A stretch of DNA of 64,000 nt from an uncultured Clostridia bacterium (GCA_963558405.1 CAUWGC010000002.1:40852-104851), one strand, 5' to 3'. Shown: positions 12,885-45,993, counted from the first letter of the stretch. Translations and numbers: made by a program. The notes: generated by a model from the letters alone, not told the origin.

Positions 12885-14534
12885 TTATAACTCCTCAATT
12901 TCGCTCCTGTAATAATACTCAGGCACATATATTATTTTTATATTATTTTCTATAAAACTATTTTCGACCTCTGAATCAAGTAGTATATCGCTAGAAATAT
13001 ATACTTTACTTATATCAGGTAAACTCCAATTTTTTATATCCGATAGGTCATCTTCTTTTAAAATCAATTTTATTTTATTATTTATTCTAATATTATTTTC
13101 CAAAACAACTAATTCTTTTATATTATTTAAAAGTTCATCACTTAATTCAATATCCTCGTTTTGTAAATGATATCGTTTTACATATTCAGTCGTATAATAT
13201 TTTAAATTTGCTGGTATTCCTATATGATCTCCGTACCCTTTAATTACCTTTTCAATTCGCTTATATGTAATTTCTTCACAAATATTATTCTCATTGTTTG
13301 TACATAAAATAAATTTTCTGTTTTTTCCATCTTCCTTATTTTGTTCTAACACAGCCTGAGCTGTTGTTCCACTTCCTGCAAAAAAATCTAAAACAGTTTC
13401 ACTTTTTGTATGTTCTAATAGAAATCTTATTATTTCAACAGGTTTAGGATTAGGAAAAACATCTTTTTTTTCAAAAATTTCCGTTAAGGTTTTAGTAGCA
13501 TCGCCAGTTTCAGCTAAATCATATAAAATACTTCTACTTTTAATAATTTTATATTCATTTCCTGTATAATAAGTTTTTTCGTAAGGTATCCATCTATTGT
13601 TTTTTTCATCTTTATTCCAATAAATTAAATCATTCTTAATTAAATCTTCCATTCTATTTTTTCCAACTCTCCATCGACCATCTTGTCCATCTGGAGCAAT
13701 GGGAAATAATTCATTATTATCAGGATCTAAAATGGAAAAATACATTGTTGGTCTATCTTCTCTATGAGCTGAACTCCCCCACTTTTCTAATTTTGTAATA
13801 TTAAATTTTCCATTCTCATCTTCATATTTATAACTTTCATCTGTCTTTTGAACTTTTTTATCTATCCAATTAAACTTATCAGTTTTTCTGTATCCGAAAA
13901 TATACTCGTGTTCAGTTACAAAGAACTCATCTGTTTGACCTCCACCATATTTTTTTCTCCAAATCAGAGTTCCAATAAAATTATTTTCTCCAAATATATC
14001 ATCACACAATAATTTTAATTGAGCAAACTCATTTTTATCTATACTAATAAAAATAACTCCATCATTTGATAATAGTTTTCTTGCTACATTTAATCGTTTT
14101 GCCATAAAAGAAATCCATTTTGAATGTCTATATCCATCATCTATTCCAATTCTTTTATCATCATATATAAACTCTTTATTTTCTGTATTATATGGCGGAT
14201 CTATATAGATAAAATCAATTTTACTTTTGTGTGTTTTTTCTAATAGATACAAACTATGTAAATTATCGCCTTCAAGTAAAAAGTTAATATTATTATTTTT
14301 ATCTGAACAAATTTCTTTTTCCTCTATTTCTCTAAAAACAGGAATATTTTTTTTCAGTTCTTCATCTACTTTTTCCTCGTGTTCTTCCCAAATAAGTCCA
14401 TATTTTTTACTTTTAAGCTCTTTTTCAATTTCTGTAAGCTTAGCTTTTATTTCTATATCTGTATTTCGTTCTTTTAAAAATTCTAAAGTTTCAATTAAAC
14501 TATCTCTTTTTTGTTGGGATAAATTTGTACTCAT
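12885..14534 (-). CDS. mod: Type III R-M Mod subunit (beta-class N6-adenine DNA methyltransferase)
   Basis: Motif IV IYIDPPYNT comes before motif I FFAGSGTTAQAV. That order is the beta-class one typical of Type III Mod. Confidence 0.8.
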   Translation of the reverse strand: MSTNLSQQKRDSLIETLEFLKERNTDIEIKAKLTEIEKELKSKKYGLIWEEHEEKVDEELKKNIPVFREIEEKEICSDKNNNINFLLEGDNLHSLYLLEKTHKSKIDFIYIDPPYNTENKEFIYDDKRIGIDDGYRHSKWISFMAKRLNVARKLLSNDGVIFISIDKNEFAQLKLLCDDIFGENNFIGTLIWRKKYGGGQTDEFFVTEHEYIFGYRKTDKFNWIDKKVQKTDESYKYEDENGKFNITKLEKWGSSAHREDRPTMYFSILDPDNNELFPIAPDGQDGRWRVGKNRMEDLIKNDLIYWNKDEKNNRWIPYEKTYYTGNEYKIIKSRSILYDLAETGDATKTLTEIFEKKDVFPNPKPVEIIRFLLEHTKSETVLDFFAGSGTTAQAVLEQNKEDGKNRKFILCTNNENNICEEITYKRIEKVIKGYGDHIGIPANLKYYTTEYVKRYHLQNEDIELSDELLNNIKELVVLENNIRINNKIKLILKEDDLSDIKNWSLPDISKVYISSDILLDSEVENSFIENNIKIIYVPEYYYRSEIEEL

Positions 14535-16286: not shown

Positions 16287-19200
16287 CTAACAACCTGTTC
16301 TAGGAAGTTTTTGTGTTGTTTCTATTTCTTTTAAATAAGTTATTGTTTTCCAATCATCTTTATCTTCTACATAAATATCTTTATAGTTGCCTGATGCTTT
16401 TGTATGATTTACAAATATAAATCCATTTGGTAAATTATCTAACATATCACAATATAATCTAGGTTTTTCAACTTCTTTAAAGTCTGATTTTACTGTTCCA
16501 AATCTGAATTGAAAATCTGTTATAAATTCTCCCTCTTTTAATGTTGCATCTGTAAATTTAACTTCATTATTAACTAATGTACTCAAACCATCTTTTAGCA
16601 TTATATAGTCATCACTTAAATTAGTTTTATACCATACAGAATATGTTAAATCTTCATTCCAAGTTCCTGTATAAATTTTATTTGCTCTTAAAGCATTTGT
16701 AGGTAATGAATCACTCCAAGTGAAATTATCTAATGCTATGTTAGATTTATTATGAATATTTGAAAAATCATAATATATGTTATCTTTATTTTGTGTTTCT
16801 ATAAATCCTTTTTTAGTAACTTCAATATCAATATCTACATTATCATCTTCTACTTTTGCATCTACAATTTCTTGATGTTTTATTATTTCTGCCTCAAATA
16901 TTTCATCTGTAAGTATATAGTAATCAGGGCTTTCTACTTCTTTTAAAGTATATTTTCCTTTTAATAATTCTTTTGTTGTAGCCTCTCCGTTTTTATCTGT
17001 AAGTAAAGTATCTACTAAATTATTATTTTCATCATATACTTCAAATTTTGCATTTTCAAGTCTTGAACCTTTTACATCTCCATTGTATTTATTATCTTCT
17101 TTGCTTACCTTTATTACTCTGATATAGCCTTTTATTAGTTCGTTTTCAAAAGTTAAATTTGTAATTTGATCTTGTGTTAATGTTACTGTTTGCGGTATTT
17201 CATTTAACACATAATTTTCTAATGTTTTTGATTCTTGTACTGTGTATTTTTTATCTATTCTTAATCTTTTACTTGTAGCCTCTCCATTTTCATCTGTAAT
17301 TAAAGTATCTACTAAGTTTTTATCTTCATCATATACTTTGAATTCTACACCTTTTAGCTTAACCTCATTATTGTCTTTGTCAACTTTTATTACTTTGATT
17401 TGACCTTTCTTTAGTTCATTTTTAAAAGTTAAATCTGTAATTTGGTTTTGTGTTAATGTTACTATTTGTGGTATTTCATTTAACACATAATTTTCTAATG
17501 TTTTTGATTCTTGTACTGTGTATTTTTTATCTATTCTTAATCTTTTACTTGTAGCCTCTCCATTTTCATCTGTAATTAAAGTATCTACTAAGTTTTTATC
17601 TTCATCATATACTTTGAATTCTACACCTTTTAATTTTACCTCATTATTATCTTGATCAACTTTTATTACTTTGATTTGACCTTTTTTTAATTCATTTGTA
17701 AAAGTAACTGTTTTAATTTGTTCTGCCTCTAACACTACTGTTTGTGTCGTTTCATTTAATACATAATTTTGTAAAGTTTCTTTTTCTCTAATTGTTAATT
17801 TTGAATAATCTCTTATTGCATATCTTGATGTATAAGCTTCTCCGTTTTCATCTGTTGTTATTGTTTCTAAAACTTTTCCGTTTTCATCTAAAACATCAAA
17901 TTTTACTCCTTGTAGTTTTACTTCTTTATTGTCTAAATCAATTTTTATAACTTTTACTTGACCTTTCTTCAATTCATTTTCAATAGTATTTTCTTCAGTT
18001 GTATTCCATTTAACTTCAACAGTTGTATCTTCTGCAAGATTATACCATTTTCCTGTATTTTTTTCGATTAGTTTATAACTTCCTGTTCTTAGGTTTTTTA
18101 TGCTTATTTCTCCATTAACATCAGTTGTATATGTTCCAATTACTCTTTGAAATTCCTCTGAATATAAATCAAATTGTACATTTCCTAGTGCTATTTTGTG
18201 ATTATCTTTATCTACTTTATATATTTTCAAATTTCCTTTTTTATGATCATTTGTTATATTTTGATTAGTAGATTTGTTATACTCTACATTTACATCAAAA
18301 GTAGCTTTATTTATAACATAATTATCATTTGTAGAAATTTCTTTTAATTTGTAATTGCCCTGATATAGTCCACTAAATGTTGCTATACCATTTAAATTTG
18401 TAGTAGCATTTGCGACTACTGTTCCATCTGCTTTTGTTAATTGAAATGTTACACCTGCGATTGGTTTTGATGTTTCACTATCTGTTTTATTTATTTGTAA
18501 TTTTCCTGTATTAGTTTTAATGTTAAGAGTAGCACGACCAACACCATCTCCAAAAGGATCATAAGTTAGTGCATAGTTTTGAGTACCTTCTGTTCTAGTT
18601 TTACCATAAAATACAGGATATGTTTTACATTTACCTTGCACATTGATTATAGCATTTGAAATATCTTGTACCATTTGAGATTTAGGTATTTTTACATACA
18701 TACTTTCATTTCCATTAAATGAATTTGTTTGGATACCGTTTGAATTAGTTATAATAGTTCCTTGTGGTAAGTTAGCAGTAGCTGTAATTGTATAATTTGT
18801 CATCTCTACTGTACTTGAAACATTTATTTTTTGAGTATAGTAATTCCCATCCTCATATAAATTGCCTGAATTAGATAATGTTATATTAGGATCTGAAGGC
18901 ATTTGACTACCATTTCTTCCTATGTTTACCATATTAACTATTGCATTTTTAATAGCATCGCCTCTAGCATCTGCTCCTTGATTTGCTCCTCTAAATCTAG
19001 TTACTGGATCAAAGTTATATAAAATGCAATATACTGCTTGTTTAGTAGCTTGAAAAGCCTCTAAATCATTTGCAACTCCCAATTCACTTGCTGATTTATA
19101 AGGAAATCCATTTATAATTGTTCTCCATATTCTAACATCTCCTAAAACATCAGTAACACTAGCATTTACATCAACAGTATATCCATCTAGCTCCCCAACA

Positions 19201-19454
19201 CCTGGATGTTCTCTATTTACACAATAAGCAGGATATTCTTTTCCACCTTCACTATATGTAGTATAAGTGGTTGTAATATAATACCAAGCATTTTTTGCCT
19301 CATTCCAATATTGTAAATGGTATTCCACATCTCCTCTATTTTGAATATTTGCTGAACTAATCTCTGTTGCAAATACACTAGGGTTTATTGTAGAAAATAA
19401 TGTTAATACTAACATTAGCATTGCTAAAATTCTTTTACTTTTTACTTTTATCAT
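16287..19454 (-). CDS. cell-surface adhesin with repeated Cna B-type (prealbumin-fold) domains and C-terminal LPRTG
   Basis: It has a signal peptide. Four near-identical ~90-aa repeats follow (KKGQIKVIKVDKDNNEVKLKGVEFKVYDEDKNLVDTLITDENGEATSKRL...), matching the Cna-B pattern. The ORF ends ...KLPRTGC directly at the stop. The N-terminal region has YCVNREHPG and QATKQAVY, which could be a thioester-domain Cys/Gln pair. Confidence 0.7.
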   Translation of the reverse strand: MIKVKSKRILAMLMLVLTLFSTINPSVFATEISSANIQNRGDVEYHLQYWNEAKNAWYYITTTYTTYSEGGKEYPAYCVNREHPGVGELDGYTVDVNASVTDVLGDVRIWRTIINGFPYKSASELGVANDLEAFQATKQAVYCILYNFDPVTRFRGANQGADARGDAIKNAIVNMVNIGRNGSQMPSDPNITLSNSGNLYEDGNYYTQKINVSSTVEMTNYTITATANLPQGTIITNSNGIQTNSFNGNESMYVKIPKSQMVQDISNAIINVQGKCKTYPVFYGKTRTEGTQNYALTYDPFGDGVGRATLNIKTNTGKLQINKTDSETSKPIAGVTFQLTKADGTVVANATTNLNGIATFSGLYQGNYKLKEISTNDNYVINKATFDVNVEYNKSTNQNITNDHKKGNLKIYKVDKDNHKIALGNVQFDLYSEEFQRVIGTYTTDVNGEISIKNLRTGSYKLIEKNTGKWYNLAEDTTVEVKWNTTEENTIENELKKGQVKVIKIDLDNKEVKLQGVKFDVLDENGKVLETITTDENGEAYTSRYAIRDYSKLTIREKETLQNYVLNETTQTVVLEAEQIKTVTFTNELKKGQIKVIKVDQDNNEVKLKGVEFKVYDEDKNLVDTLITDENGEATSKRLRIDKKYTVQESKTLENYVLNEIPQIVTLTQNQITDLTFKNELKKGQIKVIKVDKDNNEVKLKGVEFKVYDEDKNLVDTLITDENGEATSKRLRIDKKYTVQESKTLENYVLNEIPQTVTLTQDQITNLTFENELIKGYIRVIKVSKEDNKYNGDVKGSRLENAKFEVYDENNNLVDTLLTDKNGEATTKELLKGKYTLKEVESPDYYILTDEIFEAEIIKHQEIVDAKVEDDNVDIDIEVTKKGFIETQNKDNIYYDFSNIHNKSNIALDNFTWSDSLPTNALRANKIYTGTWNEDLTYSVWYKTNLSDDYIMLKDGLSTLVNNEVKFTDATLKEGEFITDFQFRFGTVKSDFKEVEKPRLYCDMLDNLPNGFIFVNHTKASGNYKDIYVEDKDDWKTITYLKEIETTQKLPRTGC

Positions 19455-30414: not shown

Positions 30415-32217
30415 TTATTTATACGAATTCCAAATCCCCCATAGTTTTATATCTTCAATATCTTTTACATTTCTTTGACTTTCTCTTTCAAATCTTAATT
30501 TTCTGTTATGCTCTTGATTTCCCATTCCAAATAAACTATTAAATTTCCATTTTGAAATATCAGGAAGTTTAGTAATAATAGGAAATAGTCCTGTTTGAAT
30601 AACCAAAACATAAGGTCTTTCAATTCTAAGTATTTCATCTTCAGTCAATAAACTTCTACTAATTAAATTTATTGATTCAGAATTACTGCCATTTTGATAT
30701 TTACTATAACTACTTGATCTACTGTAACTGGAAGTAGTATAAGTTCCAAGTTTTTTTGAAATTATACTAGCTGTTTCATTACTAGCAGTTTTCAAATATA
30801 TCCAAGTTTGACAGTTATCTCTAATATTTTCAGCCACTTCACGACCATATTTATTTTCTAGTTGTGAAAATGATTGTAAAAATAAATTAAATCTTATTTT
30901 TCTACCACCTGCAACTGTAAGCATATTACTAAAAGCAGGAATAGTAGTAAAGTTTCCAAACTCATCTAAAATATAATTTACTCTTGTCTTTAATTCGCCT
31001 CCTCGTTCATCAGCACTTTCAACAAGTGAAACATAGTTCTGATATACAAAAAGTGAGGCTAAAGGATAGTAAGTAGTTTTTTCATCAGGAAGAATAATAT
31101 AAGTAACTGTTTTTTCTTCCCCTGCTTGTTTTAAACTAAAATCACTTTTACAAGTCATTCCATAAATGCTTTTACTTGTAAAAAGTCTTAAAGTAGTAAG
31201 AGCTGAAGTAAAAAAAGAGCCTCTTGTTTTTTCAGGTGCAATTCTTGCAATATTAAATATTGTACTTGCAGGATGCTCAGGTGCGAGATTTTCAATGTAT
31301 TTATTTATTGGCATCTGTTGTCCTGTTGTTTTGCACATTTCTGAAATAAAAGAGTAAACATTAGTTAAATTTTGATATTCAGGGTGTTCTTTATTATCAA
31401 AAACAACACTCATAATTGCTCCTGCAATTACTGACATTTCTCCATCTCTCCAAATTTTCTCCATCTTAGTATCTTCATTTCCAACTAAACTTTGTGTTAT
31501 ATCCCAAGCATATTCTTCAGCTTTTCTAAAATCATCTCTATTTACTGCATCAATTACAGGTTGTAGAAAGTTATATCTTGTACTTTTAGTAGGATTCTTA
31601 AAGTCTAAGGTTATAATTTTATACCCTAGTTCTTCTAAAAATTTTGAAGTATAGTGATATATTTCAGCTTTAGGATCTGAAATAATCATACTTTCTCCTG
31701 CTAATCCAAGATTACCAACAGTTTGTAAAACAATACTTCTAGTTTTACCACTTCTAGTAGCTCCAACAACTAAACTGTGTATATTGTCATCAATGTAGTA
31801 AATATTTTCACTATTTTTATTTTTCTCATAGCCAACAATAATACCTCCTGAATTAAAAGTATTATTACTATCACTTAAAGTATTACATTTAAAAGTCTTT
31901 CTGAATTCTTTTTTTGTAAGCCATCTAGCTGTTCCGTGCTGTCCTTGTCCCATTATTTCAGGTGTCTTTAATTTATCTGTAATACTAACTGTTCCACTTT
32001 GAAAAACCTTCTTACTTCCAAAACCAAAAAGCATAATAATTACAACTTCAACAAGTAAATAGACAAGAAAAAATAGTAGTAATAATTGCTTATCAACTAC
32101 TATTTGTGAAATTTCTATTTTAGCAAGTTTTGTATGAATTGTGGCACTCAAATATATGCTTAATGGAATATTAAGCATTGATAATATTGCTATAATTCCA
32201 AGTTTCTTTTTATTCAT
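30415..32217 (-). CDS. VirD4/TraG-type type IV coupling protein
   Basis: It has an N-terminal TM domain, Walker A LVVGATRSGKTRS, and the 600-aa size usual for this family. Confidence 0.85.
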   Translation of the reverse strand: MNKKKLGIIAILSMLNIPLSIYLSATIHTKLAKIEISQIVVDKQLLLLFFLVYLLVEVVIIMLFGFGSKKVFQSGTVSITDKLKTPEIMGQGQHGTARWLTKKEFRKTFKCNTLSDSNNTFNSGGIIVGYEKNKNSENIYYIDDNIHSLVVGATRSGKTRSIVLQTVGNLGLAGESMIISDPKAEIYHYTSKFLEELGYKIITLDFKNPTKSTRYNFLQPVIDAVNRDDFRKAEEYAWDITQSLVGNEDTKMEKIWRDGEMSVIAGAIMSVVFDNKEHPEYQNLTNVYSFISEMCKTTGQQMPINKYIENLAPEHPASTIFNIARIAPEKTRGSFFTSALTTLRLFTSKSIYGMTCKSDFSLKQAGEEKTVTYIILPDEKTTYYPLASLFVYQNYVSLVESADERGGELKTRVNYILDEFGNFTTIPAFSNMLTVAGGRKIRFNLFLQSFSQLENKYGREVAENIRDNCQTWIYLKTASNETASIISKKLGTYTTSSYSRSSSYSKYQNGSNSESINLISRSLLTEDEILRIERPYVLVIQTGLFPIITKLPDISKWKFNSLFGMGNQEHNRKLRFERESQRNVKDIEDIKLWGIWNSYK

Positions 32218-32569
32218 TTTCTAGCTCATCTCCTTGTTCTAAGTTATTTTCTAATTCAAATTCAACAGTATATGCTTTTATCTGTTCTTCTGTTAAATCT
32301 TTAAAGTCTTGATGTTTTTCATCATTTCCTGTAATAATAAAATTCCCTCTAATATTTAAACCATCAATCGTTCTATTTATAGGAAGTAACTTTTTAAAAG
32401 CCTCCTCATCATAAACAATAAGAACATCTTTATATTTAATAACTTCTATATTTTGATTTCCGATTATTCTTCTTAGTGTATTAAGTCTATTAGGAATTCT
32501 TTTTAATTCAGGATTTTTAGCATTTTCAACTATGAGAACTAACATATTCTGTTTTTCAATAATTACCAC
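32210..32569 (-). CDS. hypothetical protein
   Basis: A 119-aa ORF between the relaxase and the T4CP. Confidence 0.4.
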   Translation of the reverse strand: MVIIEKQNMLVLIVENAKNPELKRIPNRLNTLRRIIGNQNIEVIKYKDVLIVYDEEAFKKLLPINRTIDGLNIRGNFIITGNDEKHQDFKDLTEEQIKAYTVEFELENNLEQGDELENE

Positions 32570-32572
32570 CTC

Positions 32573-33511
32573 CTAGAATTCCATTTCATCTAATTCTTCT
32601 GTGCTATAATGCATCTCAATAGCAAGTTGCTTTTTAGCACTTTCATTTAATCCAGTTAAGGTAGTTGTATCTTCAGCTTGTTTATTTCTACTTAATTGTT
32701 CAATAATGTCTACAATGTTAGAATGAATACTTTTATAAGTAACCTTCTCTTGCTTAACACCTTTAATATTTTTTCTTGCCTTTTCCTTAAAGTAAAGTTC
32801 CATATTTTCTCTTAAATACTTTTCTTTATGGAGCTTTTTATCACTACATTTATAACCAGTAGGAGTCGTATAAATAATGCTTAATTTTTCTTTACTCCAA
32901 TTCACTTTATAACCTAGTTTGTTCATACCTGTAAAGAATTCATACTTATTGTTTGATTTTTCCATAACAGAATCTATATCTTTTGTTAATAATTCTTTCC
33001 AACTAATACCTTTAATCCTTGCTTGATATTCATTTATTTTTATATCATCAACTTTAGATTTTTGCTCTGTTATAGCAAGTCCATATTCTTTGCAAATTTG
33101 ATTTGATAAATCTTTAATTTTTTGCAAGTCTTGTTTGCTTTGGTGGAACTTTAATCCATTTTCAAAATTCACAGTATTTAAAACTATATGATTATGTATG
33201 TGTTCTCTATCAATATGTGTAGCAACTACTACTTGAAAGCCTTTAAAATATTCAGCCATTCTAACTCCTATTTCGTGAGCCTGTTCGTATGTTGGTTTAT
33301 CAGTAGGAGAAAATGATTGAACAAAGTGTATTTTTTCTCTACCAGTTAGCTTTTTATACATCTTCTTAACTGTCATCATTTCTTCGTAAGCAGTTTCAGG
33401 TATGCAATCTTTACCTGAAATTAGCTTTTTATCTGTTTTTTCTTCTTTGCATATATAATTTAGAGTCTTTTTTAAACTGACTTTGTTGTTAATAAATTTA
33501 ATGATTGCCAT
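32573..33511 (-). CDS. MOB-P type relaxase (MobA/MobL family)
   Basis: The three-His motif HIDREHIHNHIVLN is present, along with an N-terminal Tyr region. The ORF ends ...ELDEMEF. Confidence 0.85.
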   Translation of the reverse strand: MAIIKFINNKVSLKKTLNYICKEEKTDKKLISGKDCIPETAYEEMMTVKKMYKKLTGREKIHFVQSFSPTDKPTYEQAHEIGVRMAEYFKGFQVVVATHIDREHIHNHIVLNTVNFENGLKFHQSKQDLQKIKDLSNQICKEYGLAITEQKSKVDDIKINEYQARIKGISWKELLTKDIDSVMEKSNNKYEFFTGMNKLGYKVNWSKEKLSIIYTTPTGYKCSDKKLHKEKYLRENMELYFKEKARKNIKGVKQEKVTYKSIHSNIVDIIEQLSRNKQAEDTTTLTGLNESAKKQLAIEMHYSTEELDEMEF

Positions 33512-33780
33512 AATTTTTGTAACTCCTTTTTTGTACCTTCTAAATCAACACAAGTAATAATTTTGCTATTAGCAAGTCTTGTTAATTGATTGATATTATT
33601 TCCAATTCTTCTAAGTTCTGTTATCATTTCAGGTAATTCATTTATAACTATAATCTTATTGCCAGTAGAACTTTTAATTATAAATTCTGAAATACTTTGA
33701 TTAGCTTGTTTGCTCTTTAAAGTTATAGTCATTTTTTCTTCAGGAGTTACCCTAATTTCAATTCTCTCTGTTTTCTTCAA
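33472..33780 (-). CDS. mobC: MobC-family relaxosome accessory protein
   Basis: LRRIGNNINQLTRLAN matches the MobC GNNLNQ signature. Confidence 0.7.
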   Translation of the reverse strand: MKKTERIEIRVTPEEKMTITLKSKQANQSISEFIIKSSTGNKIIVINELPEMITELRRIGNNINQLTRLANSKIITCVDLEGTKKELQKLWQSLNLLTTKSV

Positions 33781-33844
33781 TATATCTCCTTCCTTGTGCT
33801 AATAAAACTTATGTGGTGTAACCACTTGATCAAAAAAAGGTACT

Positions 33845-33885
33845 TTTTGCTCCCTTTGTACTGACAAAGGGGAATCTTGCTATAC
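33845..33885 (-). promoter_or_regulatory. candidate oriT (inverted repeat + nic-like core)
   Basis: The IR CCCTTTGT-actg-ACAAAGGG is followed by GAATCTTGCTATAC. ATCTTGC resembles the MOB-P nic core ATCCTG|C. It sits between parB-like and mobC. Confidence 0.45.
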
Positions 33886-34773
33886 ATCGCTGTCGCTCCT
33901 AAAATAGTCATCTAATAATTTCTTAATTAAAATACTGAATTCTTTATCTGAATTAAATCGGTCTTTATATTCATTAAATACTTGCCTATTTAATTTTCCA
34001 GTAAATTTTTCTTCTTTAACTTTTTCATTTTTTAGTATTTTTAAAACTATTTCATAAGTAATATTGTTTCGTTTTAATCTAAGTTTTTGTGCTTGAACAA
34101 GTGTTAATTTTATTTGTTCATCATCTAATGCTTGATTTATAATTTCTTGTTCTTCTTTAGATAAGTAAGAAATTTCAACTCCTGCCATAAAATTTATTTG
34201 TTCTAAATTCACTTTATTTTGTAAGGGCTTAATTAGTTCTGTAAGTCTTATATATCTATAAATTTGAGCTAAACTTGTATTATTCTCATCGTGAGAATTT
34301 TCCATTAACTCATTGATATTACTTATGTTAGGGTTGTTTTTTAATATTTCTAATTTCATTTTGTAAGCATATCCTTTTTCAACAGGAAGTATTTTATCTC
34401 TATTACAAAGATTAGTATCTATCATAATTAAGGTAGCTTTATCATCATCACAATCCACAATTTGAGCTGGAATTGTTGATAAGTGTAGTTCTTTTGAACA
34501 TTCTACTCGGTTATGTCCTGAAATAATTTCATATTTTTCATTAGCTATTTTTCTAACAATAATAGGTACTAAAACTCCGTTTTCTTTAATACTTTCTAAT
34601 ACTTCTTGTTTTTTAGTTTCATCATACATTGAAAAAGGTTGCCTTTTTCTAAAAGCAACCAATTTGCTCAATTCAATATTTATAATATTATTACTATTTT
34701 CAACTTTCTTTGTTTCGTTCTTTTCAGGTGTTTTATCTACCACAAACTTTTTTCTTGCATCTTCTATACTCAA
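33880..34773 (-). CDS. ParB-like nuclease domain protein
   Basis: VPIIVRKIANEKYEIISGHNRVECSKEL matches the ParB/Srx N-terminal motif. Confidence 0.65.
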   Translation of the reverse strand: MSIEDARKKFVVDKTPEKNETKKVENSNNIINIELSKLVAFRKRQPFSMYDETKKQEVLESIKENGVLVPIIVRKIANEKYEIISGHNRVECSKELHLSTIPAQIVDCDDDKATLIMIDTNLCNRDKILPVEKGYAYKMKLEILKNNPNISNINELMENSHDENNTSLAQIYRYIRLTELIKPLQNKVNLEQINFMAGVEISYLSKEEQEIINQALDDEQIKLTLVQAQKLRLKRNNITYEIVLKILKNEKVKEEKFTGKLNRQVFNEYKDRFNSDKEFSILIKKLLDDYFRSDSDV

Positions 34774-34784
34774 AATAATTCCTC

Positions 34785-35066
34785 CTATTCAAGTTCTATA
34801 TCAGATTCCATAGAATTAGGTTTTACATATAAGTCTTGGACTTCTTCATAATGTAAATTTTCAAATTCTTTATCTGTTAAAAAGTCTTTACCCTCTAATA
34901 TATCTTTATTTGTTACAAGTGATCCAATGTTATTAACTAACACTCCTCTTTCGATTTGGTATCCATTGTCAATTTTTGAATCTCTTATATCATAATAGAA
35001 TAAATTAGGATTTCTTTCTTCAATAGGTGGCTTTTCGTGTAGCCATTGTATTTTTAAACCTTCCAT
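34785..35066 (-). CDS. hypothetical protein
   Basis: A 93-aa ORF with an acidic C-terminus. Confidence 0.35.
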   Translation of the reverse strand: MEGLKIQWLHEKPPIEERNPNLFYYDIRDSKIDNGYQIERGVLVNNIGSLVTNKDILEGKDFLTDKEFENLHYEEVQDLYVKPNSMESDIELE

Positions 35067-35067
35067 T

Positions 35068-35487
35068 TTACATCTCCATTTCTTCCTCGTATTCCAAATC
35101 TTTATTAAATTGTCCTATCTTATTTACTGCCTCAAAAATATCTGTATTTGAGTCTATTTGTAAATAAGGAATAGTGTTTTTTAAATTATTATAAACCGTA
35201 AAAGATCCATTTATAGGATCTAAAATAATTGCATAAAAAGAAACATTTTTTGATTTTAAATCTCTGCTTGTTTCATTCCATACAATTTCATCATCATCTG
35301 AAATATTTTCTTTAGAAAAATATATCATTTCTTCTAATTTCTTCAGTATAGTAGGATTTCTAAATATATTATCTTCAGGAAGTTCAGAATAATTATTTAC
35401 AATATAATTGTATAAATAACTTTCATCAGAAAAGGCTTGTAGCATATTTAAGTTTTTACCTTTTATAAATAATTGTATATTTTTCAA
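35068..35487 (-). CDS. hypothetical protein (ends EEEMEM)
   Basis: A 139-aa ORF. Confidence 0.4.
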   Translation of the reverse strand: MKNIQLFIKGKNLNMLQAFSDESYLYNYIVNNYSELPEDNIFRNPTILKKLEEMIYFSKENISDDDEIVWNETSRDLKSKNVSFYAIILDPINGSFTVYNNLKNTIPYLQIDSNTDIFEAVNKIGQFNKDLEYEEEMEM

Positions 35488-35526
35488 GTTTTACCTCCTA
35501 AAAAAGAGTTAGTATAAACTAACCCC

Positions 35527-35820
35527 TTAACTAATACATTCAATTAACAAATTGATTCCATCTTTAAACCCTTGTTTATAATATTTGTCTAAAGTTGCAC
35601 TTTCTCTTTTTAACATATCTTCTAAAGTTAAATCTAAATATTTGTCAATTTTATTTCTCAATCTTTGATTATAGATTTTATCAATAAGTTCTCTTAATTT
35701 TTCTTCGTTACCATCTTTTTGTATTTCGTAGCTAACCTCTTTTTCTAATTCACTTCTGTTAGCTAGAACTCCTTGCTCTCTATCCCAATAGATTGATTCT
35801 AAAAGTGTTTCTTTTGGCAT
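35527..35820 (-). CDS. hypothetical protein
   Basis: A 97-aa ORF. A GGAGG RBS and conserved promoter copy 3 lie upstream. Confidence 0.4.
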   Translation of the reverse strand: MPKETLLESIYWDREQGVLANRSELEKEVSYEIQKDGNEEKLRELIDKIYNQRLRNKIDKYLDLTLEDMLKRESATLDKYYKQGFKDGINLLIECIS

Positions 35821-35844
35821 ATAATTTTACCTCCTTGTCAATGA

Positions 35845-35883
35845 ATTATATAATGATATAAAATTAAATCCAAAACCCTTTTA
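35845..35883 (-). promoter_or_regulatory. conserved ICE promoter motif copy 3
   Basis: On the minus strand: AAAAGGGTTTTGGATTTAATTTTATATCATTATATAAT. Confidence 0.5.
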
Positions 35884-35893
35884 GAAAAATTTT

Positions 35894-36385
35894 TTAAAAT
35901 TCCATTTCATCTGTTTCTTCCATTGCTGAATCATCAATCTCTTGCTTTTCCTCTTGATTTTCTTCTTTTCTATATTTTTCGACATCATTTGCAAGTTGTG
36001 TACATAGTTCTTCTTCTAACCTATCTATTTTCTTTCCTAGCATTTCTTTTGGCATACCAACTTTTTCCTCATTATAATCTGTACTTAAAAATAATGTTTT
36101 AAAATTATATATCTTTGTTCGTAATGGATAATTTCCCAATGTATAATAATCTTGCATAATCTTTTTATATGGTATTATACTTTTATGATTTCCTCTTAAT
36201 TCATTCCCTTCTTGAAGTATTTTTATGATTTCTTTATCTAATCCTTTTTGACCTTCTCTATTATAAATATCTGTTAGCCAAGTATATTTACTAGAATAAA
36301 AAGGAGCAGTATCATTACTACTTTTGTGGCTTAGATACACTCCATCTTTTTTTATTGTAATTCTATTTATTAGCTCTCTACTCAT
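35894..36385 (-). CDS. hypothetical protein with C-terminal EETDEMEF tail
   Basis: A 163-aa ORF. Its C-terminal eight residues are identical to those of the ArdA-like protein. Confidence 0.45.
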   Translation of the reverse strand: MSRELINRITIKKDGVYLSHKSSNDTAPFYSSKYTWLTDIYNREGQKGLDKEIIKILQEGNELRGNHKSIIPYKKIMQDYYTLGNYPLRTKIYNFKTLFLSTDYNEEKVGMPKEMLGKKIDRLEEELCTQLANDVEKYRKEENQEEKQEIDDSAMEETDEMEF

Positions 36386-36999
36386 TAAAATTCCATCTCC
36401 TCTCCATTTTCTATTTGTGCCTCTAATTCTTGAATTTTATTATTTAAAGTTTCAACTTCTCCTTTTAATTTTAAATTTTCTTCTATTAGTAATCCTTTAT
36501 CTATTGCATTAGTTCTTGGATCTTCAAAGTCATTATTTATAGCCTTTATTTTACCCATACTCAAATATTGACTTTCTCCAACTATAATATGATCTGTTAG
36601 TTGAATATTAAATGCTTTTAACATTTTACCTGTAATATTTGTTATATGTTTATCAGGTTTACTTGGCTCTAAATCATTTGAAGGATGATTATGTACTAAT
36701 ATCACTTTTTCACTTGCTGTTATTAAAGCTGTTCTAACAATATATTTACTATCTACATATATTTCATTACATTTACCAACTCCAATTAAACTTATATTTC
36801 TAACATTATTTCTTGAATCTAATCCTATAAATAATAAATGCTCTTGAACAGCATCTTTTATTTCTTGTACTTCTTTTAATTTATATACATCATCTGAACT
36901 TGCTACTTTCATAATATCTCTTTCTTCTACTGGAGGCTTTTTTTGTATTTCTATTTCTAACCCCATACTTTTAAAACTCCATTTCATCTGTTTCTTCAA
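36385..36999 (-). CDS. RadC-like JAB domain protein (DUF2466)
   Basis: The JAB motif reads VILVHNHPSNDLEPSKPDKHITNIT. The ORF ends GEEMEF. Confidence 0.8.
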   Translation of the reverse strand: MKKQMKWSFKSMGLEIEIQKKPPVEERDIMKVASSDDVYKLKEVQEIKDAVQEHLLFIGLDSRNNVRNISLIGVGKCNEIYVDSKYIVRTALITASEKVILVHNHPSNDLEPSKPDKHITNITGKMLKAFNIQLTDHIIVGESQYLSMGKIKAINNDFEDPRTNAIDKGLLIEENLKLKGEVETLNNKIQELEAQIENGEEMEF

Positions 37000-37969
37000 T
37001 TTCTTCTAAGATAATTGTTCTATCTTCTAAATCTTTCTTAATATCTTCAATTTGACTTTCTTCAACAGATTTAAAATCTCCATTTTCGTAATCATCTCCA
37101 ATAATAAAACAGTTTCCTGCAATATAATCATAGTCAAATTGTAGATTAGGTTTTAAATTTGTAATTTTACCTTCTTCATTACATATAAGAAGTAAATCAT
37201 CTTTATAAGGCACAACTTCAATTAGTCCTCCAACTAATTTTTGTTTTGCCTCTAAGGTATCTTCAATTTCCATAACAATAGGATCTTTTCCCACTTCTTT
37301 ATAGACAATTCTCAACTTTTTTTCTTCAGATTCTTCTTCATCGTATCCTAGTTCTTCTTTTATTTCTTCTAAAGAATAATAATGTAAATCAATATCTCCA
37401 CAAGCTCCATTTTCAAGATAACCATTTTCATATAAACTAACATCATCATCCATACCATATTTTTCGTAGTCAAAACAATCAGTAACATAGTATTTTTCTA
37501 ATATTTCATCTAAGCCATTCCATATAGCTTTAGACATTCCATATTTTTCTTCGTTAGAAAGATTTTCTGAATTTTCTTCATAAGGATAAAAAGGTATATT
37601 ATCTTCTTGTAGCATAACATTTATTATTTCTTCTATATCATCTGTACCTTGATATTCAATATAAGCTTCAACAGCCTCCATATTATTTACTTTTTCAGAT
37701 GCCATTGCTAATAAATTAAGCATATTCAAATTACTATATTCACTAACTTTTATTGGTAAATCAGTTTCATAATCATTTATCATATATTCTTCATAACATA
37801 CACCATCTTCAGTGAGTGCTTTTTCAACTTCTTCTTGTGTTAATTGAAGTCCCACTTTTTCTCTTAAAAAAGTATCTAATTCTTTTTTAGAAACAGGAAG
37901 TTCTAACCATTCGCCAACAAGTTCTCCTTCGTTATATTTTCCTAAGTTTCCAATCCAAACATTAAGCAT
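36971..37969 (-). CDS. ardA: ArdA-like anti-restriction protein (double length, acidic C-terminal extension)
   Basis: The N-terminal VWIGNLGKYNEGELVGEWLELP is the ArdA signature. The protein is highly acidic and ends EETDEMEF. Confidence 0.65.
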   Translation of the reverse strand: MLNVWIGNLGKYNEGELVGEWLELPVSKKELDTFLREKVGLQLTQEEVEKALTEDGVCYEEYMINDYETDLPIKVSEYSNLNMLNLLAMASEKVNNMEAVEAYIEYQGTDDIEEIINVMLQEDNIPFYPYEENSENLSNEEKYGMSKAIWNGLDEILEKYYVTDCFDYEKYGMDDDVSLYENGYLENGACGDIDLHYYSLEEIKEELGYDEEESEEKKLRIVYKEVGKDPIVMEIEDTLEAKQKLVGGLIEVVPYKDDLLLICNEEGKITNLKPNLQFDYDYIAGNCFIIGDDYENGDFKSVEESQIEDIKKDLEDRTIILEEIEETDEMEF

Positions 37970-41845: not shown

Positions 41846-42394
41846 CTAGCTAACTTGTTTTAATAAAAATTCATATAATTCTTTAGTTGTTTTTAATATT
41901 AAATCAGCTCTAACAAAACAAGGTTTCTCATTGTAGTTATTTCCCTTTCCATCGTTAGAATATCTTAGTTTACAACCATCATCATCTATTATATTTAATA
42001 CCTCTATTAACATATCAAAATCAGTATTACTTATATTTACCTCGTTTTTTAATTCTTTCCATAATTCCTTTAATTTATGTATTTTCTTAATTTTTCCTTG
42101 TTTACTATTTAATACTGCTTTAATAGATAGTTCTATTGTATGCCTACACAAAAATAAAAAAGGCATACACATTTGATTTGTTCTAAATACTTTTATTTTT
42201 TCATCAGGATTATTTTCACTACGAAAGAACACATATAAACATTCTGCTGAATGTAAATAAGCATCTATTATCTCTCTTTCTGCTGTTTTATTTCTAAGTT
42301 CTTCTTTAAAAAAAGGAGAAAGAGAAATACAATCCCATTTATAAACTTCTTCTGTAAGTCCATTAAATTTATATCTTATATATTTATTTTCCAT
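41846..42394 (-). CDS. hypothetical protein
   Basis: A 182-aa ORF. Confidence 0.4.
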   Translation of the reverse strand: MENKYIRYKFNGLTEEVYKWDCISLSPFFKEELRNKTAEREIIDAYLHSAECLYVFFRSENNPDEKIKVFRTNQMCMPFLFLCRHTIELSIKAVLNSKQGKIKKIHKLKELWKELKNEVNISNTDFDMLIEVLNIIDDDGCKLRYSNDGKGNNYNEKPCFVRADLILKTTKELYEFLLKQVS

Positions 42395-43189: not shown

Positions 43190-43957
43190 TTACATATCTA
43201 AATCCATTTCATCTTCTTCAGTATTTTCTGAAGCAAAATTATTATTTTCATATAAACTATCAAAAAATTCTTTAGGATATTCTCTTTGATCATAATTAGC
43301 AAAACTTTTCTTTTTAGTAACTTTTTTATCTTGTCTTGATTCTAATTCATCAACTCTTAATATTACCCATCTTTTAATTGTTGCAAAATCGCTTTTATAT
43401 TCCACTCCTTTTGATCTCTTATATAAAGAAAGTTCTTCTATACATTTATTAGCTTTAGTTTCTCCGTATTCATTAACTAAATCAGTATATTCGTAATTAT
43501 ATAAATACACATTATCTAAAAATTTTTCTTTGCTAACTGTGTGTGTATTTATATTATTATATTTTATATTATTATCTTCTACTTTTTCATCACTACCCTG
43601 GTGATTATTTAATACATAGGGGTAGTGATTTTTTGATAGATAGGGTATATCATTTGGATATATCTTTCGCTGAATAATCTCTTGCTGTTCATTTCTAATA
43701 ATATCTATAACTAAATAATTATATTTTCTTAAATTCGTAATCCATCTTGAAACAGTTTTATGATCTACTCCTAGTTTTTCTCCCAAATACTTATTACTCG
43801 CATAACAATATCCTTCTTTATTTGAAAGAGCAGTAATAAGAGCATATAACAATTTTTCATTTGGTTTTAACTCATTATTAAATAAAACTGTTGCAGGAAT
43901 TACAGCAAAATATCCTATTCTATTTATTTCATTCTGTGTATCCACTTCTCCTATCAC
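43190..43957 (-). CDS. replication initiator (Firmicute RepA_N family)
   Basis: The N-terminus YFAVIPATVLFNNELKPNEKLLYALITALSNKEGYCYASNKYLGEKLGV matches the RepA_N pattern. The ORF ends EEDEMDLDM. Confidence 0.55.
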   Translation of the reverse strand: MIGEVDTQNEINRIGYFAVIPATVLFNNELKPNEKLLYALITALSNKEGYCYASNKYLGEKLGVDHKTVSRWITNLRKYNYLVIDIIRNEQQEIIQRKIYPNDIPYLSKNHYPYVLNNHQGSDEKVEDNNIKYNNINTHTVSKEKFLDNVYLYNYEYTDLVNEYGETKANKCIEELSLYKRSKGVEYKSDFATIKRWVILRVDELESRQDKKVTKKKSFANYDQREYPKEFFDSLYENNNFASENTEEDEMDLDM

Positions 43958-45372: not shown

Positions 45373-45993
45373 TTAAACACAAATATTATTTTTTATACTT
45401 TCATATTTATTTTCGCCTATTCCACTTACGTTTTTTATATCTTCTATTGTTTTAAAATCTCCATTTTGCTTACGATATTCTATAATTTTGCTTGCAGTGG
45501 ATGGGCCTATTCCTGTTAATGTTTCTAATTCAGTTTGCGTTGCTGTATTTATATTTATTTTTCCTTCTTTATCTTGCTCCTCCTCTTCCTTAATTACACC
45601 ATCTCCGCTTCCTTCCATAATATATTCCTCTTCTTCATCTAAAATGCTAGGAATATATATTTTCTGACCATCTTTTAGTACATATGCAAGATTTAGTTTT
45701 GATAATTCAGCTTCCAAAGTAGCTCCTCCTGCTGCTTCTATTGCATCTGCTATTCTTGCACCTTCTTCCAATTCTACTATTCCTTCTTCTTCTACATAAC
45801 CCGTAACATGAACTTTGATTTTATTTGTTTTTTCTTTTACTTCGTTTTGAGAAATTTCTTCTGTTTGTTGTAAATTAACTATTGAATATTCTGTTTCTCC
45901 TATTCTCTTATATAGGAATATTCCTATTACAACAAGAATAACAATAATACAAATTCCAATAATAATTTTTTGCATTTTAGTTAATTCTATCAT
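45373..45993 (-). CDS. comEA: competence protein ComEA (SLBB + tandem helix-hairpin-helix)
   Basis: It has an N-terminal TM segment and two HhH motifs: LETLTGIGPSTASKIIEYR and IEDIKNVSGIGENKYESI. Confidence 0.8.
   Translation of the reverse strand: MIELTKMQKIIIGICIIVILVVIGIFLYKRIGETEYSIVNLQQTEEISQNEVKEKTNKIKVHVTGYVEEEGIVELEEGARIADAIEAAGGATLEAELSKLNLAYVLKDGQKIYIPSILDEEEEYIMEGSGDGVIKEEEEQDKEGKININTATQTELETLTGIGPSTASKIIEYRKQNGDFKTIEDIKNVSGIGENKYESIKNNICV

What the first reader, a model, noticed from the sequence alone, without database searches (positions are those of the whole stretch)
32573..37969. Shared C-terminal acidic tail ending in DEMEF on the relaxase, ArdA, RadC-like and a hypothetical protein: candidate translocation or recruitment signal
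Four distinct proteins in the transfer region end almost identically. The relaxase ends …ELDEMEF, the ArdA-like protein …EETDEMEF, the 163-aa ORF (35894-36385) …EETDEMEF, and RadC-like …NGEEMEF. The last two EETDEMEF tails are conserved at DNA level (GAAGAAACAGATGAAATGGAxTTT). Weaker versions occur on ORF 35068 (…EEEMEM) and RepA_N (…EDEMDLDM). The relaxase is the obligate T4SS substrate. ArdA is classically transferred early to protect incoming DNA. A common C-terminal tag on exactly these proteins fits a secretion signal recognised by the VirD4 coupling protein, in the manner of the Glu-rich E-block of Dot/Icm substrates. Alternatively it could mimic the acidic-Phe SSB C-terminal tip (DDDIPF) to dock on SSB-interacting partners.
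Basis: seen in the sequence. Interest (0 to 1): 0.8.

Follow-up and report, generated by a model that had tools for sequence, protein, structure and literature searches.

The report
Shared acidic C-terminal tag on conjugation proteins
In a gut-bacterial conjugative element, the DNA-transfer enzyme (relaxase) and several unrelated anti-defence and establishment proteins all end in the same short acidic tag (…D/E-D/E-Met-Glu-Phe), which is conserved across related elements and is most likely an address label that brings these proteins to the DNA-transfer machine.

Summary
Four of 81 window ORFs end in EMEF (expected 0.0006; no internal EMEF). In 78 related loci the generalised tail, E-rich-[DE][DE]-M-E-[FMIL]-COOH, ends the relaxase, ArdA-DUF3846 (22/23), RadC (13/13), the ORF139 family (21/26), a DUF1281_C protein (6/6), some Rep-like HTH and integrase proteins, and unrelated Mob_Pre relaxases. 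It never ends a T4SS machinery protein. The tail persists while the adjacent linkers diverge. The downstream Shine-Dalgarno sequence does not explain it. Relaxases of mobilizable modules that lack a coupling protein also keep it (31/40). The wider relaxase family shows other tail "dialects". In an unrelated gut element family (80 loci) the MobL relaxase, an amidoligase, a GGACT protein and co-resident MOBP relaxases share a different tail (G-Φ-x-M-x-M/L), and the acidic one is absent.

Best reading (confidence about 0.5): an element-family-specific docking peptide read by the VirD4-type coupling protein, marking the relaxase and early-acting proteins as cargo. This is inference; no binding or transfer was tested. 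SSB-tip mimicry is not supported. The identical ArdA/ORF163 tails probably arose by cassette recombination. I found no prior description.

The parts
32573..33511 (-). MOBP/Q-type relaxase (PF03432), 312 aa. The tail ...EELDEMEF is encoded at 32576-32599.
   Evidence: 120 homologues at 50-99% identity almost all end in [DE][DE]-Phi-[DE]-Phi-COOH. The SD of the next gene lies after the stop codon (TAG-GAGGTGG), so it does not constrain the tail codons.
36971..37969 (-). ArdA (antirestriction) + DUF3846 fusion, 332 aa. The tail EETDEMEF is encoded at 36974-36997.
   Evidence: Pfam. Tail present in 22/23 family members in related loci. Nearly all of 120 homologues at 67% identity or more end in ...EMEF...DMEF or ...EEMEEF.
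36385..36966 (-). RadC-like JAB-domain protein (193 aa from the ATG at 36966; the ORF extends to 36999). The tail ...NGEEMEF is encoded at 36388-36408.
   Evidence: Pfam. Start as called in four metagenome contigs. 13/13 family members carry the tail, while the preceding 10-25 residues are only about 25% identical.
35894..36385 (-). ORF163, no family assignment. The tail EETDEMEF is encoded at 35897-35920 and forms a direct repeat of the ArdA tail codons.
   Evidence: No Pfam or PHROG hit. The identical protein is indexed in 152 blocks of the collection; the four places shown have the same gene context. The gene is followed by an intergenic promoter-like region, not by a coupled gene.
35068..35487 (-). 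ORF139 family protein ending in the tail variant ...EEEMEM.
   Evidence: 21/26 family members match the strict motif. Here the codon GAG at -2 also supplies the SD of the next gene.
43190..43957 (-). HTH_36 (Rep-like) protein ending in the related tail ...EDEMDLDM.
   Evidence: Pfam. 7/18 family members carry ...EMDLDM or ...DDMEF.
30415..32217 (-). VirD4-type coupling protein (T4CP), the candidate receptor for the tail. Its own C-terminus is a conserved ...KLWGIWNxY[RK].
   Evidence: Pfam PF02534, PF12696, PF10412. Never carries the tail. C-terminus conserved in 28/30 loci. The receptor role is inferred, not tested.
32210..32569 (-). Standalone DUF3846 protein between the relaxase and the T4CP, with its stop overlapping the T4CP start. 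It ends in an acidic near-tail (...GDELENE) that lacks the terminal hydrophobic residue.
   Evidence: Pfam. Family tails. Homologous to the DUF3846 half of the ArdA fusion. AF2 pLDDT 80 with a disordered tail. Its role is unknown; it could be an adaptor.
33472..33780 (-). MobC/NikA-like RHH relaxosome accessory protein, an alternative candidate receptor.
   Evidence: Pfam. Has no tail.
35845..35873 (-). Promoter-like TTGGAT-N17-TATAAT that follows the last tailed cassette and precedes O97 (35527-35820).
   Evidence: Read from the sequence. The same junction follows ArdA (L001), RadC (L004) and DUF1281_C (L015).

Best explanation
The tail is a short linear docking motif: an acidic run, then Met, Glu and a hydrophobic residue carrying the free C-terminal carboxylate. 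It sits at the end of a flexible linker. It addresses the relaxase, and a set of proteins that act early in a new host (antirestriction ArdA, RadC, a DUF1281_C protein, a Rep-like HTH protein, some integrases, ORF139, ORF163), to the conjugative transfer machinery.

The most likely reader of the tag is the element's VirD4-type coupling protein. In that case tagged proteins are recruited in the donor and probably co-translocated into the recipient with, or ahead of, the DNA. Small mobilizable elements that borrow the machinery put the same tag on their relaxases.

The tag differs between element families ('dialects'), as expected for a peptide-receptor pair that co-evolves. New cargo genes appear to acquire the tag by recombination within the tail-coding microhomology at a cassette slot downstream of ArdA.

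Shown: existence, position specificity, conservation under divergence, family distribution, co-variation of dialects, and absence of an SD-based explanation. Inferred: that the motif binds something, that the binder is the T4CP, and that the tagged proteins are transferred.
For: 1. Non-random and position-specific. The strict motif ends 106/1655 ORFs in the window plus 78 related loci, against 3.7e-4 per internal position.
2. Family-specific. It occurs on the relaxase, ArdA-DUF3846 22/23, RadC 13/13, ORF139 family 21/26, DUF1281_C 6/6, and some HTH_36, integrase, Mob_Pre-relaxase and MBL-fold proteins. It occurs on none of the T4CP, VirB4, VirB6-like, MobC or ParB_N families.
3. Selection acts on the peptide. 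Residue-class identity of the last 5 residues is 0.92-1.0 for the relaxase, ArdA, RadC and DUF1281_C families (0.77 for the ORF139 family), against 0.25-0.60 identity in the adjacent 10-25 residues. Codons vary synonymously.
4. The long (mobilizable-type) relaxases have C-terminal halves that do not match the window relaxase (tblastn matches stop at about residue 240-250), yet 31/40 still end in acidic-Phi tails. None of the 40 loci has a T4CP within up to 10 kb, so the tag must be read in trans. A conjugative locus (L018) and a mobilizable locus (L067) come from the same MAG.
5. Dialects and co-variation. 150 relaxase-family representatives show at least 3 recurrent C-terminal patterns. In set B (80 loci, 1493 ORFs) the MobL relaxase (53/81), an amidoligase (58/60), a GGACT protein (50/60) and MOBP relaxases (7/7) share G-Phi-x-M-x-[ML]-COOH, while the acidic tail is found in 2/1493. 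In set A the reverse holds.
6. Both sets have a VirD4-type T4CP (29% identical) but different RHH accessory proteins. No DUF3846 was found among the ten set B proteins scanned.
7. Tagged accessory genes lie just upstream of the relaxosome genes and are transcribed towards the presumed oriT, which is the leading-region arrangement (orientation logic from established knowledge).
8. Chemical precedent. The F TraD acidic tail ends in a Phe whose side chain and carboxylate are read by a pocket in TraM, in a plasmid-specific way (PMC3159463). Conjugative T4SSs are known to translocate plasmid-encoded maintenance proteins (PMC8406263).
Against: - No binding or translocation data exist, and complex modelling could not be run with the tools available.
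- Dialect is confounded with host clade. Set A hosts are low-GC uncultured Clostridia; set B hosts are a different group (L075 is from Eubacterium sp. OM08-24 and the related dialect-3 loci from Ruminococcus). A host receptor would give the same co-variation.
- Leading-region genes are normally expressed in the recipient, so protein transfer is not strictly needed.
- The standalone DUF3846 next to the T4CP has an almost-tail, and the ArdA fusion carries DUF3846 right before the tail. The recognition unit may therefore be more complex.
- Known VirB/D4-type signals are positively charged, not acidic.
- pCF10 and Tn916 show no shared tail, so this is not a general Gram-positive rule.
Confidence: 0.5

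Rival explanations
1. The tag docks on a relaxosome or adaptor protein of the element rather than on the T4CP itself. Candidates are the RHH protein MobC (by analogy with TraM, which reads TraD's acidic-Phe tail), the ParB_N protein, or the standalone DUF3846. This would assemble the tagged proteins on the oriT complex.
For: The TraM-TraD precedent involves an RHH accessory protein. MobC recruits MOBP relaxases to oriT in Tn1549-type ICEs and Bacillota IMEs (PMC12857230). MobC sequences also differ between dialect groups. DUF3846 is conserved and translationally coupled to the T4CP, and is fused to ArdA directly before the tail.
Against: In set B the same dialect is shared by relaxases that use unrelated accessory proteins: the RHH f1 with MobL, and MobC with the MOBP relaxase. 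No DUF3846 was found among the set B proteins scanned. Tagged Mob_Pre relaxases and integrases have no obvious reason to bind another element's MobC.
Confidence: 0.2
2. The tag binds a host protein. It could mimic the SSB C-terminal tip and so reach SSB-partner proteins on incoming ssDNA, or it could be a degron or adaptor tag that limits the lifetime of early-acting proteins.
For: An acidic run followed by Phi-x-Phi-COOH resembles SSB-Ct (DDD[IL]PF), and several carriers act on DNA. Dialect correlates with host clade as well as with element family.
Against: The SSB found in a related locus keeps ...DDLPF. The tails never have Pro at -2 and tolerate M/L/I/V at -1. No evident chromosomal host protein in the 3148 ORFs surveyed carries either dialect; the carriers are mobile-element-type proteins or unannotated ORFs. 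ArdA is a DNA mimic that targets restriction enzymes, so it has no known need for SSB partners (established knowledge). Acidic C-termini are not typical ClpXP, Lon or FtsH degrons (own knowledge).
Confidence: 0.15
3. There is no protein-level function. The similarity is a by-product of DNA-level constraints, either the Shine-Dalgarno sequence of the coupled downstream gene or a recombination site used for cassette shuffling and recent 3' duplication.
For: GGAG within the tail codons serves as the SD for the next gene in the ORF139 family and in the window's ArdA and RadC. The ArdA and ORF163 tails form an 8-codon direct repeat flanking the RadC-ORF163 insert, and the tail-promoter junction is conserved whichever cassette is last.
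Against: In the relaxase and in most ArdA, RadC and DUF1281_C genes, the SD lies after the stop codon or the gene is followed by an intergenic region. The amino-acid class is conserved through synonymous and conservative codon changes. The tail occurs on relaxases with unrelated C-terminal halves, on integrases and on Mob_Pre relaxases, in quite different DNA contexts. A second dialect behaves the same way.
Confidence: 0.05

Closest known systems
F-plasmid TraD C-terminal tail bound by TraM (relaxosome-coupling protein docking)
   Same: A highly acidic, disordered extreme C-terminus ends in Phe. The Phe side chain and the free carboxylate are read by a hydrophobic pocket lined with basic residues. 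The contact is plasmid-specific and links the relaxosome to the T4CP (PMC3159463).
   Different: The polarity is reversed. In F the tail is on the T4CP and the pocket is on the RHH protein TraM. Here the tail is on the relaxase and on many accessory proteins, and the T4CP ends in an aromatic and basic ...KLWGIWNxYR. The system here is Gram-positive. The receptor is unidentified.
C-terminal translocation signals of VirB/VirD4-type and conjugative T4SS substrates (Arg-rich or positively charged tails; F/pED208 'conjutome' substrates)
   Same: The signals are located at the C-terminus. They are proposed to be recognised by the VirD4 coupling protein. They are shared by relaxases and non-relaxase proteins, and plasmid maintenance and anti-SOS proteins are co-transferred with DNA (PMC8406263, PMC11288057).
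   Different: Those signals are positively charged or hydrophobic, loosely defined, and sometimes internal. The tail here is a discrete, strongly acidic 5-8-residue motif with a fixed Met-Glu-Phi-COOH ending.
Legionella Dot/Icm E-block (Glu-rich C-terminal signal)
   Same: A Glu-rich C-terminal region with a hydrophobic residue close to the end, present on many otherwise unrelated substrates (own knowledge).
   Different: It belongs to a type IVB system in which acidic peptides are bound by DotM in the DotL coupling complex (own knowledge). No DotM or IcmSW homologues were noticed here. The E-block is a compositional bias at about -10 to -17, not a fixed terminal motif.
SSB C-terminal tip (DDD[IL]PF); also the acidic Phe-ending tails of T7 gp2.5 and gp4
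   Same: An acidic run with a hydrophobic residue, then x-Phe-COOH, used as a hub-docking peptide. In T7 several proteins share the tail to reach one partner (own knowledge).
   Different: Pro at -2 is absent from the tails here, and the terminal residue is variable. The true SSB in a related locus retains ...DDLPF. The carriers are not OB-fold proteins.
Polyvalent proteins of conjugative elements (Iyer et al. 2017, PMC5512222)
   Same: The functional repertoire overlaps (ArdA, RadC, ArdC-N/SNF2, ParB-like, LPD domains), and that paper proposes these proteins are delivered with the DNA through the conjugation apparatus.
   Different: In that case the activities are fused into one giant polypeptide. 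Here they are separate small proteins, each with its own tag. That paper does not mention DUF3846, and I found no mention of a terminal tag in the passages I read.

Membership tests
T4SS C-terminal translocation signal, VirB/VirD4 type | Located in the last ~20-50 residues of the substrate, in an unstructured region | tested here: met
   The motif is at the extreme C-terminus. AF2 gives pLDDT below 50 for the tails, although the model is poor overall.
T4SS C-terminal translocation signal, VirB/VirD4 type | Net positive charge or an Arg-rich consensus | tested here: not met
   The tails are strongly acidic: D/E at -8 to -4 and at -2.
T4SS C-terminal translocation signal, VirB/VirD4 type | T4CP-dependent transfer of a reporter fused to the signal | not testable with these tools
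   Needs a Cre or beta-lactamase fusion assay in a donor that carries the element.
T4SS C-terminal translocation signal, VirB/VirD4 type | Present on the relaxase and other substrates but not on machinery components; encoded alongside a VirD4-type T4CP | tested here: met
Dot/Icm E-block signal | Glu-rich stretch near the C-terminus with a hydrophobic residue at about -3/-4 | tested here: met
   E-rich at -8 to -4 and Met at -3. Here, however, it is a fixed motif and not a compositional bias.
Dot/Icm E-block signal | Type IVB system with a DotL-DotM-IcmSW coupling complex | tested here: not met
   Pfam shows a VirD4-type T4CP and a VirB4-like ATPase typical of Gram-positive T4SSs. No Dot/Icm components appeared among the proteins scanned.
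SSB C-terminal tip | Consensus D-D-D-[IL]-P-F-COOH | tested here: not met
   Position -2 is E in 51 and D in 5 of 56 tails, never P. Position -1 is F, M, I, L, V or Y. The SSB at L034:472-903 ends ...SSDDLPF.
SSB C-terminal tip | Carried by an OB-fold ssDNA-binding protein | tested here: not met
   The carriers are a relaxase, ArdA, RadC, HTH, integrase and others.
TraD-TraM type acidic-Phe docking tail | Acidic tail ending in Phe with a free carboxylate | tested here: met
TraD-TraM type acidic-Phe docking tail | The tail is on the coupling protein | tested here: not met
   The T4CP ends ...KLWGIWNxY[RK]. The tail is on the relaxase and accessory proteins.
TraD-TraM type acidic-Phe docking tail | The receptor is the tetramerisation domain of an RHH relaxosome protein | not testable with these tools
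   An RHH MobC is present, but binding could not be modelled because chimeric or complex inputs are not accepted.

The most novel reading that the evidence does not exclude
Gram-positive (clostridial) conjugative elements use short, element-family-specific C-terminal 'zip codes' (for example ...DDMEF or ...GFVMSM) that define the protein cargo of their T4SS. Under this reading:
- The relaxase, antirestriction and other establishment proteins, and even integrases are injected as proteins.
- Mobilizable elements parasitise a helper by copying its code.
- New cargo is recruited by recombination within the tail-coding microhomology at a cassette slot.
This would give a sequence-readable predictor of T4SS cargo and of helper-hitchhiker compatibility.
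Probability: 0.35. Interest if true: 0.9.

Novelty: new variant of a known kind. Interest (0 to 1): 0.78.

Why it matters
How Gram-positive coupling proteins recognise their substrates is almost undefined experimentally (2025 review, PMC12857230). Protein co-transfer during conjugation has so far been shown mainly for Gram-negative plasmids, with poorly defined signals.

A discrete 5-8-residue tag found on the relaxase and on antirestriction and establishment proteins, with family-specific dialects, would make several questions directly testable:
- Which residues dock on the coupling protein?
- Are anti-defence proteins delivered as proteins before the DNA is expressed?
- Which mobilizable elements can use which helper?

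It would also allow cargo to be predicted from sequence in uncultured gut bacteria. A minimal tag might also be useful for engineering protein delivery between bacteria.

Tried and rejected
- Shine-Dalgarno or translational-coupling artefact. It holds for the ORF139 family and partly for the window's ArdA and RadC. It is rejected as a general cause.
- Recent 3' duplication. It is accepted only for the origin of the ORF163/ArdA pair.
- SSB-tip mimicry. Rejected on sequence grounds.
- Near-identical plasmids in PLSDB: none. The closest plasmid relaxases are about 40% identical. One C. perfringens plasmid relaxase ends ...EREFEM.
- AlphaFold of ArdA-DUF3846: too poor over DUF3846 to use (pLDDT 60).
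- Pfam does not model any of the tails.
- Literature searches for the motif strings, DUF3846, Gram-positive T4SS signals and protein translocation found no prior description.
- pCF10 and its Tn916 insert show no shared tail, so the phenomenon is not universal.


Full report
**1. Observation**

The region lies in a low-GC (about 25%) Gram-positive integrative conjugative element. On the minus strand the gene order is: TnpV-like > ArdA+DUF3846 > RadC > ORF163 > O97 > ORF139 > O93 (weak LPD28 hit) > ParB_N > MobC/NikA > relaxase (PF03432) > standalone DUF3846 > VirD4-type T4CP > VirB6-like > VirB4 and further T4SS genes.

Exactly four of 81 ORFs end in EMEF: the relaxase, ORF163, RadC and ArdA. 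Weaker versions occur on ORF139 (EEEMEM) and on an HTH_36 protein (EDEMDLDM). The expected number of C-terminal EMEF is 0.0006 (Poisson P = 5e-15). EMEF never occurs internally in any window ORF, and no shuffle reproduced a shared C-terminal 4-mer.

**2. It is not a coding-sequence artefact**

For ORF139, and for the window's ArdA and RadC, the tail codons contain the GGAG used as the SD for the next, tightly coupled gene. The relaxase has its downstream SD after its stop codon (TAG-GAGGTGG), and ORF163 is followed by a 73-nt intergenic region.

Across related loci, most ArdA, RadC and DUF1281_C genes have the next SD after the stop codon or are followed by an intergenic promoter. The tail is still retained, with synonymous variation such as GAA/GAG, TTT/TTC, GAT/GAC and TTA/CTA.

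**3. Conservation and distribution**

120 relaxase homologues at 50-99% identity nearly all end in [DE][DE]-Phi-[DE]-Phi-COOH, for example EMEF, DMEL, DMEM, EIEM, ELEM and EWEI. 120 ArdA-DUF3846 homologues at 67% identity or more end in ...EMEF...DMEF or ...EEMEEF.

In 78 related loci from gut Clostridia MAGs, the strict motif ends 106 of 1655 ORFs, against 3.7e-4 per internal position. By family:

| Family | Members with the tail |
|---|---|
| Relaxase | 37/79 strict; most others have acidic-Phi variants |
| ArdA-DUF3846 | 22/23 |
| RadC | 13/13 (relaxed motif) |
| ORF139 family | 21/26 |
| DUF1281_C protein | 6/6 |
| HTH_36 | 7/18 |
| Tyrosine integrase next to MobC-relaxase | 3 |
| Mob_Pre (MOBV) relaxases | 3 |
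| MBL-fold protein | 1 |
| Standalone DUF3846 | 2/34 |
| T4CP, VirB4, VirB6-like, MobC, ParB_N and other machinery families | 0 |

The position-frequency summary over 56 distinct (family, tail) pairs from 16 families is: E-rich at -8 to -6, D/E at -5 and -4, M at -3 (44/56), E at -2 (51/56), and F21/M17/I7/L6 at -1. Within families, residue-class identity of the last five residues is 0.92-1.0 for the relaxase, ArdA, RadC and DUF1281_C families and 0.77 for the ORF139 family. The preceding 10-25 residues are only 0.25-0.60 identical. This is the signature of a short linear motif under purifying selection at the end of a variable linker.

**4. Mobilizable elements**

Relaxases longer than 320 aa match the window relaxase only over the N-terminal domain (about residues 1-240). 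They sit in small Int-MobC-relaxase modules. None of these 40 loci has a T4CP homologue within the flanks, and 26 of them have at least 5 kb on both sides. Even so, 31 of 40 end in acidic-Phi tails such as FDWFEDEEEM, NWFEEEEEI and EDEWEM.

By contrast, 29 of the 30 short-relaxase loci with enough downstream sequence encode the T4CP. One MAG (CASVZF01) carries both a conjugative locus (L018) and a mobilizable one (L067). The tail must therefore be readable in trans, as expected for a signal aimed at a helper's machinery.

**5. Dialects and co-variation**

A profile search of the relaxase family against 1.84 billion cluster representatives returned 150 diverse members, whose C-termini fall into recurrent patterns:
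- Phi-[DE]-Phi-COOH, as here.
- Phi-[DE]-Phi-[DE]-R-COOH (...GLDWER, ...GFER, ...DFDMER).
- G-Phi-x-M-[SG]-[MG]-M-COOH (...HGPVMGGM, ...HGFKMSM).

I predicted that accessory proteins should share the dialect of their element. In L075 (Eubacterium sp.), an amidoligase, a GGACT/AIG2 protein and a MobL relaxase end in ...SGFVMSM...GMGGMTL and ...AQGLKM. I then fetched 80 metagenomic loci around MobL homologues (set B, 1493 ORFs). This dialect ends the MobL relaxase in 53/81 cases, the amidoligase in 58/60, the GGACT protein in 50/60, and co-resident 458-aa MOBP relaxases in 7/7. The acidic tail occurs in 2/1493 ORFs, and no machinery protein carries either tail.

In set A the third dialect occurs only in the Ruminococcus/Eubacterium loci L074-L078. 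Set B uses a VirD4-type T4CP that is 29% identical to the window's, together with a different RHH accessory protein. No DUF3846 was found among the ten set B proteins scanned. In both sets the tagged accessory genes sit directly upstream of the relaxosome genes.

**6. How the tag spreads**

Between ArdA and O97 there is a slot holding 0-2 cassettes (RadC, DUF1281_C, ORF163), and every cassette is tagged. Whichever gene is last, its ...GATGAnATGGAATTyTAA end is joined to the same promoter-like sequence (TTGGAT-N17-TATAAT), RBS and O97 start.

In the window, the last eight codons of ArdA and ORF163 are 23/24 identical and flank the RadC-ORF163 insert. In L001, ArdA abuts the promoter directly. 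Recombination within the tail-coding microhomology is the simplest origin. ORF163 itself is a real recurrent gene: the identical protein is indexed in 152 blocks of the collection, and the four places shown have the same gene context.

**7. Interpretation**

The best-supported reading is a docking peptide that addresses the relaxase and early-acting proteins to the transfer machinery. The VirD4-type T4CP is the most parsimonious receptor. It is the component that both element families and the T4CP-less hitchhikers must use, whereas the RHH proteins differ and DUF3846 was not found in set B.

The chemistry has a precedent in conjugation. TraD's acidic tail ends in a Phe whose side chain and carboxylate are bound by TraM in a plasmid-specific manner (PMC3159463), although there the tail is on the T4CP. 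Transfer of plasmid-encoded maintenance and anti-SOS proteins through conjugative T4SSs is established for F-like plasmids (PMC8406263, PMC11288057). The same functional repertoire (ArdA, RadC, ArdC-N/SNF2, ParB-like) has been proposed to be delivered with the DNA as polyvalent proteins (PMC5512222).

Three things remain inferred: that the peptide binds anything, that the binder is the T4CP, and that the tagged proteins enter recipients.

**8. Caveats and rivals**

- Dialect is confounded with host clade, so a host receptor cannot be excluded.
- SSB-tip mimicry is disfavoured. A true SSB in a related locus keeps ...DDLPF, and the tails lack Pro at -2. No evident chromosomal host protein among the 3148 ORFs surveyed carries either tail.
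- A relaxosome protein (MobC) or DUF3846 could be the direct receptor or an adaptor. The standalone DUF3846 ends in a near-tail without the terminal hydrophobic residue (...EEME...ELENE). Its fold gave no functional lead.
- pCF10 and Tn916 show no shared tail, so the phenomenon is restricted to certain families.

**9. Novelty**

I found no description of this tag, of DUF3846 function, or of any discrete substrate signal for Gram-positive T4SSs. A 2025 review states that evidence on relaxosome-T4CP recognition in Gram-positive systems is limited. Pfam does not model the tails.

I rate it a new variant of a known kind. C-terminal T4SS recruitment peptides and acidic-Phe docking tails are known. 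What is new is the acidic charge, the carriers, the discreteness of the motif and the dialect structure.

Noticed in passing
window 30415-32217 (-), C-terminus: The VirD4-type T4CP has its own conserved aromatic and basic C-terminus, ...KLWGIWN[LVMSY]Y[RK]-COOH, in 28/30 related loci. It may be an interaction motif in its own right.
   Followed up: partly
[not shown]
   Followed up: partly
relaxase-family representatives P0241-P0388: Two further recurrent C-terminal 'dialects' appear in this relaxase family: Phi-[DE]-Phi-[DE]-R-COOH (...GLDWER...GFER...DDRSR) and G-Phi-x-M-[SG]-[MG]-M-COOH (...HGPVMGGM...HGFKMSM). The first was not examined for co-variation with accessory proteins.
   Followed up: partly
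L082-L161, e.g. L083:7277-8848: In a MobL-relaxase ICE family from human gut, an Amidoligase_2 protein and a GGACT/AIG2-like protein sit immediately upstream of the RHH-MobL genes. They carry the same G-Phi-x-M-x-[ML] tail as the relaxase. Their role in conjugation is unknown.
   Followed up: partly
window 35821-35893 (-) and 35897-35920 / 36974-36997: A cassette slot lies downstream of ArdA. A conserved promoter-like TTGGAT-N17-TATAAT follows whichever tailed gene is last. A near-identical 24-nt direct repeat (the ArdA and ORF163 tail codons) flanks the RadC-ORF163 insert.
   Followed up: yes
window 33828-33871: Two short inverted repeats (GATCAAAAA/TTTTTGCTC and CCCTTTGT/ACAAAGGG) lie in the ~100-nt gap between ParB_N and MobC. 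This is a candidate oriT.
   Followed up: no
window 16287-19454 (-): A 1055-aa surface protein with a thioester domain (TED) and six SpaA-type domains ends ...KLPRTGC directly at the stop codon. It lacks the usual hydrophobic segment and basic tail after an LPXTG sorting motif, so it may be truncated or unusual.
   Followed up: no
window 10653-14534 (-), 41846-42394 (-), 1020-2075 (-), 8247-9623 (-): Cargo or defence-like genes on the element: an N6/N4 DNA methylase plus a ResIII/SNF2 helicase pair, a HEPN-domain protein, a Fic/DOC+wHTH protein, and a protein with a WapI-like immunity domain.
   Followed up: no
window 3700-4893 (-) and 45373-45993 (-): A tyrosine integrase at one side and a ComEA-like (SLBB+HHH) gene at the other suggest element boundaries near 3.7 kb and 45 kb. 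A second integrase lies at 62602-63933.
   Followed up: no
L028:655-6651: A 1998-aa polyvalent-type protein (ArdC-N + SNF2 helicase) occupies the ArdA position in a related element. It ends in an acidic aromatic stretch, ...EEFEWEEEVYE.
   Followed up: no
L081 (C. perfringens plasmid NZ_CP120690) 1121-2209: A relaxase from a cultured C. perfringens 13.7-kb plasmid, about 35% identical to the window relaxase, ends ...DNEREFEM. This is a possible entry point for experiments in a tractable host.
   Followed up: no
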